From an uncultured Gemmatimonadales bacterium (GTDB taxonomy: Bacteria > Gemmatimonadota > Gemmatimonadetes > Gemmatimonadales > GWC2-71-9), in NCBI GenBank assembly GCA_963779755.1, contig CAVZZO010000003.1, forward strand, positions 128,001 to 192,000: a stretch of DNA of 64,000 bases, read 5' to 3'. Every line of letters starts with the position of its first letter. The stretch's first letter is position 1. Of the stretch, positions 15,001 through 18,000 are shown piece by piece. Position numbers: made by a program.

Positions 15001-18000
15001 TCCGCCGGCTCGCCGCTCTCATCTTCCAGCAGGACGTCCTCCTCCTCGTCCTCCCGGGCCTCCGCCTGCGCCTGGGCATGCAGGCGCAGCAACTCGTTGA
15101 CGCTGCCCACGACCTCCTCCACGGAGGCGGCCAGGTAGCCGTCGTCGCCGATGTTGCCGACGAACTCCTCCGCCAGCAGCATCTGCCGGGGCGTGAATTC
15201 CATCAGCTGGAGCTGCTCGCGCAAATGGTCGTCCAGGTCCTGGCGCTCGACCGACACCGGCTCGAGATACTCGCGCTCCTCGTACTGCTCGCGGGTGCCG
15301 CCCACCTCGAACCCGTTGAGAAGGATCTCCTCCCAGTCGGTCTCGTTTTCCTTGTCCTTGTCCTCCTTTTCCTGCTTCTCCTGGGCCGCCTGATCCTGCT
15401 GTTCTTCTTCGTCCGGGTCCAGCAGCTCCAGGAACGGGTTGACCAGCAGCTCCTGCTTCAGGTGCTGCTGGAGATCCAGCATGGGCATGTACAGCATGTC
15501 CATGGCCTGATACAGGCGCGGATTGATGCGGAGATCCTGCCGCAGGCTGGTGGTCTGGGAGAGCCCGGTCCTCACGCGACGGCCTCCAGCCGGGCACGCA
15601 GCCGGGCGGTGAGGGTGGGGCCGAGATAGAGCTGCGAGACCCGGTCGTCGAAGACCAGGTCGCGCACCGACCCGGAGACCTGCACTTTGCCTTCGAACAT
15701 GATGTATGCGCGATCCACGATATCGAGCGTCTGCTCCACGTTGTGATCGGTAATCAGCACGCCCAGGCCCCGGTGCCGCAGCCCGGCGACGATGGTCTGG
15801 ATGTCGTGCGTGGCGATCGGGTCCACACCGGCGAACGGCTCGTCCAGCAGCATGAACTTGGGCTCGGTGACCAGGGCGCGGGTGATTTCCAGCCGCCGCC
15901 GTTCCCCCCCGCTCAGGCTGTAGGCCCGGTTGCGGCGCAGGTGCTTGATGGACAGCTCGTCCAGCAGCCCTTCCAGGCGGCGCCGGCGCTCCTCCCGCGA
16001 AATGGGCAGCGTCTCCAGGATGGCATAGACGTTCTCTTCCACGGTCATCTTGCGGAAGATGCTCGGCTCCTGCGCCAGATACCCGATGCCCGCCCGGGCC
16101 CGTTTGTACATGGGCGCCTCGGTGAGGGCGGCGCCGTCGAGCAGCACCGCGCCCGCGTCGGGCTGAATCAGGCCGGTGATAAGGTAAAACGTCGTGGTCT
16201 TTCCCGCCCCGTTGGGGCCCAGCAGCCCGACGATCTCGCCCTGCCGCACCTCGAGCGTGACGTCGTCCACCACGCGGCGGCGCTTGAACGCCTTGGTGAG
16301 ATGACGCCCTTCCAGTACGCTGGAGCTGGGCGGCACCACATGATGCGCGTCGCTGGTGCCGTGGCGCAGGCCTTCGCGGGCCACGGCCAGCAGGTGGGTA
16401 CGGGCCCAGGGCCGATCGCCCATCGCCTCGACCCACCAGGGGCCGGCGGCGCGCACCGCCTCCTGATAGCCCACCGCGATGTACCCCTCGGTCGCCAGCC
16501 GCGGCAGCGTCGAGCGCAGCAGGTTCTCCCGCACCTGGTCGCCGGAGAGATCGCGCTGCACCGGAAAGCCCAGCTCCTGCACCGTGAGCAGGTAGGCCTC
16601 GCGATACGCGCCGACCAGATCGGAGAGCGTCGCCCGGCCGTCCTCGCCGGCGACCTGCACCAGCGCCGCCAGCGCCAGCGGCAGCGAGGCGTCGCGGTCG
16701 GCCAGCAGGGTCAGCCAGAGCGGCTGCACCGTCATGGCTTCGGCCTCTCGCCGGCCGCCGCCGCCCGGGCGGAATCGGCCGCCGCGCTGTCGGGGACCTG
16801 TTCCAGGGGATCGAGCTGGACTCCGTCTACGTTCCCCCGCAGGTTCACCCGGTCCACCCCGCCCTGGGCATCGTCGCGCATGGTTACCACGATGGTATCG
16901 CCCCGGGAGTAGTTGAGCCCGGGCACGCCGCTCGAGTCCTGCTTCACGCGATAGAACGCCCGCGCCCGCCCCACGGCCTCGATGCGCTGGAGCACGGTAT
17001 GGGTCTGCCCCGCGGAATCGCGCTGCGCAAAGCGGGCGAGGACGCTGTCGCCTTCCATCCAGTCGCGCTCGGTGGTGACCACACAGTCGGGCGCCGAGCC
17101 CACGCAGGCCCCGCCAAAGGCCCGCGCCTCCGTCAGCACCTTGCCGGGCGTATCGAATGCCAGGCTGTCGGCCCGGATGGCGTAGTCGGGCGAATGCGCG
17201 AACGGCCGCAGTGAGTCGCCCCAGGCCAGGGTCTCCACCAGATCATGGTTCTCCAGCCGGAGGCTGATGGTGTCGGCCCGGAGATCGAGATCGCTGGTCA
17301 GGGCATGGCCGTTGCCCTGCGCCCGCACCCGGTTCAACTCCTTGTCGGCCAGGCCCAGCTCGATGCGCCGGCCGGTCAGGTTGAAGGAGTCGGCCCCCAG
17401 CCCGCGGATGACCGGCGAGCCGATCAGGCTGCCGTCGCTCCCGGCGCCGGTGTCCAGCCGCATGGAATCGGCCCGGGCGGCAAAATCGCTCCGGTCCACG
17501 GTGACCCGGCCGCCGGCCCAGATCCGGTCCTCGCCCTTGAAGCGCACCCGGTCTCCCACGATGCGATAGGGCTCGGCCGGCCTCCCCGCCGAATCCACCG
17601 GGATGTACTTGATGCTGGGCCGGCCCACGGCGTACATCTCCAGCGTGTCGCGCTGTCCCTTGATGGCCCGGTAGTAGTCCAGCGCCGGGCCGGTCAGGGT
17701 GGAACCGTTCTCCAGGTTTCGGGTCACCACATGGCCGCGGGCCTCCCAGCGCTCGCCCTGGCGGTAATAGGTGCCCCGGTCGGCATCCATGGTGATGGTC
17801 GTATCCTGGTAGCGCACGGCCCCGATAAACTGCAGCACGCCCTGGCCGCCGTACCAGGCGACGCTGTCGCTCCGCATATGGACGTTGAGGCCCACGCAAC
17901 TGATGCGCACATCGCCGCCGGCGAAGTAGTTGGTGCCGTCCGGCGTCTTGACCTGGGCGCCCTCCCGCTCTACGTGGTCCAGGCTGAAGAGGCACTTCTC

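What a model noticed while it worked through the whole genome (the two positions that open the first line are those of the whole stretch)
15572..16735. LptB of Gemmatimonadales carries an N-terminal Cdc6/ORC-type winged-helix domain
The only LptB (LPS export ATPase, in lptC-lptA-lptB-rpoN) has 135 extra N-terminal residues that fold as a winged helix most like those of Cdc6/Orc1. The fusion is a mark of the order and hints at a link between LPS export and DNA or a partner protein.
Evidence so far: Extension in frame and alignable in 24 of 25 Gemmatimonadales LptB; profile finds it once in 39 of 61 genomes, 36 of 40 relatives in the order, 0 of 15 outside the class. Model pLDDT 90; best match Cdc6 1fnn Z 10.8, rmsd 2.8, 101 aligned, next rows ORC subunits.
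(Added by a program. Inside this text positions count along the whole contig: contig position 128,001 is position 1 of the stretch shown here. "Call 12" and the like, gene names such as g00115 and contig names such as C1 are that model's own, and its searches are not shown. The text may have been shortened before it was handed on; [...] marks where a part breaks off. The agent that wrote the report below was given it as the finding of a first reader that could run no searches.)

Follow-up and report, generated by a model that had tools for sequence, protein, structure and literature searches.

The report
LptB with acidic winged-helix accessory domain
In most members of one class of Gemmatimonadota bacteria, the ATPase that powers lipopolysaccharide export carries an extra folded domain at its front that has the shape of a DNA-binding module but is acidic, has been lost repeatedly and most likely binds a protein; its job is untested.

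Summary
The 387-aa LptB has a ~126-aa N-terminal domain that folds as a winged helix (pLDDT 94). Its nearest solved fold is Cdc6 1fnn (Z 11.6, rmsd 4.1, 16% identity), with no sequence match.

First, it is no mark of the order: it occurs in 92 of 104 genomes of the order, 12 of 27 in other orders of the class and 0 of 19 in other classes. The trees fit one gain, vertical descent and 5-8 losses. Second, DNA binding is unlikely: net charge is negative in 77 of 78 copies and the wing is mostly acidic.

The domain is under purifying selection and sits on a linker of 14-111 aa. My best reading is a dispensable protein-binding accessory module; no partner was identified.

New here: this LptB has Glu where E. 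coli needs Arg198 (R198E is null there), always with an Arg-rich C-terminal helix (131 of 131 loci; one event, independent of the domain). No paper was found. The scan noted this fusion before in three other genomes.

The parts
15572..16735 (-). lptB, 387 aa, fused gene
   Evidence: single lptB-grade match in the genome
16358..16735 (-). N-terminal winged-helix domain, residues 1-126; acidic; near-invariant S17, R45, L72, R79, L80, W101 (D15, A21, G33, G84, R108 at 79-89%)
16322..16357 (-). linker, residues 127-138; pLDDT under 50 at 128-131; 14-111 aa in relatives
15620..16321 (-). ABC ATPase core, residues 139-372; Walker A at 16196-16219
15734..15736 (-). Glu334 in the switch helix, at the place of Arg198 of E. 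coli LptB
   Evidence: alignment to solved LptB chains; E in 131 of 157 loci; PMC6703430 section 7
15572..15619 (-). Arg-rich C-terminal helix, residues 373-387, replacing the short E. coli-type C-terminal loop
16732..18063 (-). upstream gene, about 443 aa, taken as a long lptA from its position and signal-peptide-like start (inferred; no family match); its stop overlaps the lptB start
18060..18680 (-). lptC (PF06835, E 8.6e-11) with a lipobox-like Cys after a hydrophobic stretch
14046..15575 (-). rpoN (sigma-54); its likely GTG start overlaps the lptB stop

Best explanation
A normal, sole LptB that gained an accessory winged-helix domain once, near the base of the class. The domain probably came from the kind of winged helix that follows AAA+/STAND ATPases (inferred from fold neighbours). 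It hangs in the cytoplasm on a flexible linker, two copies per LptB2FG complex, and acts as a protein-binding module (toward its twin or a cytoplasmic partner) that tunes or positions LPS export without being needed for the transport cycle. Shown: fusion, fold model, distribution, repeated loss, purifying selection, acidity, variable linker. Inferred: translation as one chain, origin of the domain, protein binding, any effect on the ATPase. No partner was identified.
For: In frame and single copy in 105 of 151 genomes, 78 of which built the profile (one is frameshifted in its assembly). The domain tree follows the 8 families with the least possible 7 changes. dN/dS is 0.02-0.41 in 17 of 17 close pairs. 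Net charge is negative in 77 of 78 copies (median -5.5) against a median of -1 in 686 background windows; the wing is negative in 57 of 78. The linker runs 14-111 aa and is the only low-confidence part of the full-length model. There are 9 presence/absence changes on the LptB tree, 6 forced by strong branches. Precedent in the same fold class: the Sir3 winged helix (Z 9.1) dimerises and does not itself bind chromatin (PMC5386860, passages). N-terminal tags do not affect E. coli LptB (PMC6703430 section 7).
Against: Most conserved polar residues sit at helix caps or turns and may be purely structural (inference; no coordinates were available to map a surface). Mean column identity is only 35%. 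No neighbouring feature tracks loss of the domain: RpoN region I, the LptB C-tail and the LptC lipobox are the same with and without it. Several lineages do without it.
Confidence: 0.55

Rival explanations
1. Tolerated passenger or solubility tag: the domain is kept folded because a misfolded N-terminus would harm an essential protein, but it has no specific partner.
For: 5-8 independent losses. dN/dS is higher than in the core in all 17 pairs. Several loci without the domain carry a low-complexity, often acidic N-terminal tail instead (L048, L049, L053, L158). N-terminal tags are harmless in E. coli.
Against: Kept in 92 of 104 genomes of the order and in at least three orders despite easy loss. 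S17, R45, R79 and W101 are kept in 90% or more of 78 copies.
Confidence: 0.25
2. DNA- or RNA-binding domain, as in Cdc6/Orc1: it tethers the chromosome or a transcript to the LPS exporter, or lets LptB regulate transcription.
For: The top fold matches are initiator winged helices, TubR and the phosphorothioate-DNA-binding SBD (Z 8.1-11.6). Three arginines are conserved (R45 94%, R79 97%, R108 88% basic).
Against: No copy is net basic; median pI 4.9; the recognition helix is net positive in 11 of 78 and the wing in 5 of 78; the wing varies from 15 to 29 aa.
Confidence: 0.1
3. The domain binds sigma-54, the product of the next, translationally coupled gene, and holds it at the membrane according to the state of LPS export.
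For: lptB and rpoN overlap. Two related LptBs (P0180, L131) carry a copy of part of sigma-54 region I right behind the domain.
Against: The lptB-rpoN order and the region I sequence are the same where the domain is missing. The copy differs from its own rpoN by 10 non-synonymous and 3 synonymous codons of 33, no sign of purifying selection; it looks like one local duplication.
Confidence: 0.07
4. Annotation artefact: the true start lies near residue 133-139 and the extension is untranslated.
For: In-frame GTG codons lie at residues 133-134.
Against: Open, alignable frame across orders, start coupled to the upstream stop in 97 of 109 loci, purifying selection, confident fold.
Confidence: 0.02

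Closest known systems
LptB (E. coli YhbG; TIGR04406; PDB 6MBN, 6MHU, 4P31)
   Same: ATPase core above the equivalog cut-off, motifs intact, lptC-(lptA)-lptB-rpoN order, sole copy; LptF/LptG and LpxC are present in the genome.
   Different: Extra ~126-aa folded N-terminal domain with linker; Glu at the Arg198 position; the short C-terminal loop is replaced by a ~15-aa Arg-rich helix.
C-terminal winged helix of Cdc6/Orc1 (1fnn, 1w5s/1w5t, 2qby; human and fly ORC1)
   Same: Best structural neighbours, Z 8.5-11.6 over 93-108 residues.
   Different: 8-16% identity, rmsd 3-4.5 A, no sequence-profile match listed; here it precedes an ABC ATPase instead of following an AAA+ ATPase; acidic helix and wing.
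Sir3 C-terminal winged helix (3zco)
   Same: Orc1-derived winged helix, Z 9.1 over 110 residues; works as a dimerisation module rather than binding chromatin (PMC5386860 passages). The best 'works like' model.
   Different: Eukaryotic, 10% identity; dimerisation of the LptB domain is untested.
Sulfur-binding domain of ScoMcrA-type nucleases (8h0l, 7ccd, 5zmo)
   Same: Z 6.7-8.1 over 110-113 residues; Atlas lead at 0.83, under the 0.9 mark.
   Different: No nuclease attached; 9-14% identity; scores near the level common to many winged helices.
ABC ATPases with regulatory domains (MalK, ModC, MetN; recalled, no call)
   Same: An importer/exporter-type ATPase carrying an accessory cytoplasmic domain.
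   Different: Those domains are C-terminal OB/TOBE or ACT-type folds that bind ligands or regulators; this one is an N-terminal winged helix.

Membership tests
LptB (TIGR04406) | Score above the curated cut-off | tested here: met
   346.7 bits against 240
LptB (TIGR04406) | Walker A/B, signature and H-loop intact | tested here: met
   invariant columns in 79 sequences; alignment to solved LptB
LptB (TIGR04406) | Sits in the lptC-lptA-lptB-rpoN cluster; LptF/G encoded in the genome | tested here: met
   lptC and rpoN by Pfam, lptF/G; lptA only inferred from position
LptB (TIGR04406) | E. coli-type C-terminal loop whose terminal carboxylate pairs with Arg198 | tested here: not met
   Glu334 and an extended helix; a variant feature of 131 of 157 loci, not a loss of orthology
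LptB (TIGR04406) | Hydrolyses ATP and drives LPS extraction with LptFG | not testable with these tools
   needs biochemistry
Winged-helix fold | Helix-strand-helix-helix-hairpin topology | tested here: met
   H17-28, E34-36, H37-55, H65-82, E86-88, E93-96 in a pLDDT 94 model; top fold rows are winged helices
Cdc6/Orc1 initiators | AAA+ ATPase N-terminal to the winged helix | tested here: not met
   the only ATPase is an ABC domain and lies C-terminal
Cdc6/Orc1 initiators | Sequence homology of the winged helix | tested here: inconclusive
   no Cdc6 chain listed at E<=10; no Cdc6_C among the 25 Pfam families shown
Cdc6/Orc1 initiators | Structural similarity of the winged helix | tested here: met
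   Z 11.6, rmsd 4.1, 105 aligned; the tool warns that Z under about 13 can be generic for helical models
Cdc6/Orc1 initiators | Basic recognition helix and wing for DNA contact (expectation recalled, no control set run) | tested here: not met
   helix net positive in 11 of 78, wing in 5 of 78
Cdc6/Orc1 initiators | Binds origin DNA | not testable with these tools
   needs experiment
ScoMcrA-type sulfur-binding domain | Fold and family match | tested here: inconclusive
   Z 6.7-8.1; Atlas 0.83; a second homolog gave STAND-associated leads instead
ScoMcrA-type sulfur-binding domain | Sulfur-binding pocket residues | not tested
   no residue-level structural alignment was returned

The most novel reading that the evidence does not exclude
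This class has rewired the control of its LPS exporter. LptC looks like a lipoprotein, so it would lack the transmembrane helix that damps LptB2FG ATPase in E. coli; the Arg198/C-terminus latch is charge-swapped; and the winged helix is a cytoplasmic docking site that couples export to a regulator such as sigma-54 or an LPS-synthesis enzyme. It would be a built-in cytoplasmic regulatory domain on LptB, which my searches found described nowhere.
Probability: 0.15. Interest if true: 0.85.

Novelty: new variant of a known kind. Interest (0 to 1): 0.52.

Why it matters
LptB is treated as a minimal ~240-aa ATPase with no accessory domain. A conserved, unclassified folded domain on it gives a handle on how LPS export may be regulated from the cytoplasm outside Proteobacteria, and natural loss lineages supply the control. 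The natural Glu at the Arg198 position with a compensating Arg-rich tail is a direct test of the switch-helix/C-terminus model from E. coli, where R198E is null. If the domain proves to be a passenger, the finding is a useful class marker and annotation fix only.

Tried and rejected
Complex prediction of two cores, two domains, ATP and Mg gave no verdict (score 0.00, no controls folded); it is evidence neither way.

No sequencing run was listed for window 14000-18700, so expression is untested.

Pfam, NCBIfam and PDB sequence searches gave no family for the domain. Foldseek gave nothing at E<=0.001. Two Atlas searches gave only leads under 0.9 and disagreed with each other (SBD, STAND-associated domains).

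Free-standing forms: of 273 profile hits I saw the best 150 and examined 149. 41 continue into LptB, 95 end within 45 aa of the domain (mostly fragments, inferred, not checked on DNA), and 13 run into other sequence; 12 of the 13 look like frameshifts or chimeras by eye. A true stand-alone form is neither shown nor excluded.

P0080 could not be confirmed: no contig, no relative of residues 280-620, none in 401 family genomes at E<=1e-50.

Correlated loss: RpoN region I, the LptB C-tail, the LptC lipobox and, by eye, upstream-gene length did not track the domain within families. A genome-wide screen for co-lost genes was not run.

G053 first looked like a loss but has the domain with a frameshift in the linker. 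Weak hits in G037, G107 and a second one in G049 (E>=0.001, partial, away from lptB) were dropped as noise.

Literature searches listed no paper on this fusion; only open-licence PMC and bioRxiv were searched, and no supplements were read.

Full report
Observation. The ORF at 15572-16735 (-) encodes 387 aa. Residues 141-374 score 346.7 bits on the LptB equivalog TIGR04406 (cut-off 240). Residues 1-138 match nothing in Pfam or NCBIfam. The extension has coding composition (GC3 0.93) and its ATG overlaps the upstream stop by 4 nt; the same overlap holds in 97 of 109 domain-bearing loci tested. lptC lies upstream and rpoN downstream. The gene between lptC and lptB has no family match and is called lptA from position only. 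LptF/G and LpxC are in the genome.

Distribution. I searched 151 phylum genomes with the whole protein (149 with one match), fetched 130 loci (all loci without an N-terminal match were taken on purpose, so this set over-represents losses), built a domain alignment of 78 and searched the same 151 genomes with it. 107 matched; I dropped two weak partial hits away from lptB, leaving 105 with one strong copy (E<=2.5e-19). 78 of these built the profile. Without G000: 92 of 104 in the order (f1 60/71, f2 30/31, f3 2/2), 12 of 27 in other orders of the class (f4 1/1, f5 1/1, f6 1/6, f7 7/16, f8 2/2, f9 0/1) and 0 of 19 in other classes. One miss in f1 and one outside the class also lacked an lptB match. 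These tallies include the unpublished genomes G057 and G097; without them f1 is 59/70 and other orders 11/26. In the best-scoring loci of a second order (30 of 115 matches; one unpublished and one duplicate set aside), 25 of 28 carry the domain by profile, 2 more by eye and 1 lacks it. NCBI names some carriers Gemmatimonadales, Gemmatimonas and Longimicrobium, including L. terrae; that Longimicrobium lies in another order is recalled. So the fusion marks the class, not the order.

History. On a FastTree of 157 LptB cores, presence needs 9 changes, 6 forced by strong branches (the frameshifted locus and the two by-eye loci were counted as present). With other classes as outgroup this reads as one gain and 5-8 losses. 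A tree of 105 domains follows the 8 families with the least possible 7 changes, as vertical descent predicts. Loci without the domain start 32-35 residues before Walker A or keep a low-complexity tail. In 17 hand-picked close pairs (18 tried, 1 skipped) dN/dS was 0.02-0.41 for the domain and 0-0.16 for the core (simple counting method on GC-rich DNA). The domain is selected but dispensable.

Fold. The domain model has pLDDT 94.2 and pTM 0.88. Against 48,161 chains the best matches are Cdc6 1fnn (Z 11.6, rmsd 4.1, 105 aligned, 16%), ORC2 1w5s (10.1), Sir3 wH (9.1), ORC1 (9.0), TubR (8.6) and the SBD 8h0l (8.1); rows 12-50 are mostly other winged helices at 6.7-7.3 (repeated). Foldseek's best E is 0.11 and the sequence profile lists no Cdc6 chain. 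The winged helix is secure; kinship with Cdc6 is not shown. The full-length model has pLDDT 91.2 and pTM 0.76, with residues 128-131 the only segment under 50. Linkers run 14-36 aa in most families and 16-111 in f8, which argues against a fixed seat on the own ATPase.

DNA or protein. Net charge is negative in 77 of 78 copies and zero in one (median -5.5); 686 background windows from the same genome have median -1 and a third are positive. The recognition helix is net positive in 11, neutral in 28 and negative in 39; the wing is positive in 5, neutral in 16 and negative in 57. Three arginines are conserved (R45, R79, R108), so a small anion site is not excluded, and I ran no control set of DNA-binding winged helices. 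The Orc1-derived Sir3 winged helix dimerises and does not itself bind chromatin (PMC5386860, passages seen, citing Oppikofer 2013). I therefore favour a protein-binding accessory module (0.55) over a passenger (0.25), nucleic-acid binding (0.10) or a sigma-54 tether (0.07). No partner was identified.

A second change in the same protein. In E. coli the terminal carboxylate of L241 pairs with R198 of the switch helix; R198E is a total loss of function, C-terminal tags impair transport and N-terminal tags do not (PMC6703430, sections 6-7 and passages). Here the R198 position is Glu334 and the chain runs on into an Arg-rich helix, 373-386. Among 157 loci, Glu goes with the extended tail in 131 of 131 and Arg with the short tail in 26 of 26. 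The 131 form one strongly supported branch, so this is one event, not many. It is independent of the winged helix: 2 carriers have the short tail and 21 non-carriers the long one. A charge swap is my inference. LptC also shows a hydrophobic stretch followed by a lipobox-like Cys in 89 of 91 loci with the N-terminus in view (99 examined), with or without the domain (crude pattern, no control). Few LptC sequences are predicted lipoproteins elsewhere, and the E. coli transmembrane helix lowers ATPase activity (PMC9544173, passages).

Strays. One metagenomic 1339-aa protein (P0080) with a TIR domain holds the domain at 345-466, 66% identical to the copy in L005; it is a singleton I could not confirm. 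Two related LptBs carry a drifting copy of part of sigma-54 region I in the linker.

Novelty. Five searches of open-licence PMC and bioRxiv listed no paper on the fusion (listings and abstract openings only; no supplements read). The scan's own notes describe the same fusion in three other genomes; I had reached the class-wide, acidic reading before opening them. It is a member of the LptB family with an unclassified domain: a new variant of a known kind, interest 0.52.

Noticed in passing
window 15734-15736 and 15572-15619 (-): LptB has Glu at the position of E. coli Arg198 together with an Arg-rich C-terminal helix; 131 of 131 loci with the long tail have Glu, 26 of 26 with the short tail have Arg. 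R198E is null in E. coli.
   Followed up: yes
window 18060-18680 (-) and L032-L130: LptC has a lipobox-like Cys after a hydrophobic stretch in 89 of 91 loci across the phylum, so it may be a lipoprotein without a lasting transmembrane helix.
   Followed up: partly
P0080, residues 345-466 (single JGI contig of 5817 bp): The domain is inserted whole, in frame, into a 1339-aa protein with a TIR domain; the flanks look Roc-GTPase-like by eye (recalled, no family hit). Recent capture or chimeric assembly.
   Followed up: partly
L131 (G194:C126:9609-11078) and P0180: About 33-40 codons of rpoN region I are duplicated in frame into the LptB linker, 83% identical at DNA level to the genome's own rpoN, with more amino-acid than silent changes.
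   Followed up: yes
window 16732-18063 (-): The presumed lptA is about 443 aa with no Pfam or NCBIfam match; homologs run roughly 390-610 aa in most of the class against 310-355 in f9 and the other classes.
   Followed up: partly
window about 14960-15100 (-): RpoN has a long acidic stretch inside its core-binding domain.
   Followed up: no
L022, L023, L024, L031 (genus g16): LptB Walker A region deviates (Val at the position after GKT, Ala before the P-loop strand); L031 also has a frameshift between the domain and the core in its assembly.
   Followed up: partly
P0170-P0178, L132-L149: Longimicrobium-type LptBs reach 524-618 aa through long acidic linkers and acidic C-terminal tails.
   Followed up: partly
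window 7559-14049 (-): rpoN is followed directly by a run of glycosyltransferase-like and membrane genes (named by eye) rather than hpf-ptsN.
   Followed up: no
G000:C3:81303-82577 (L170): lpxC runs on into a FabZ-like C-terminal part (424 aa; FabZ recognised by eye).
   Followed up: no
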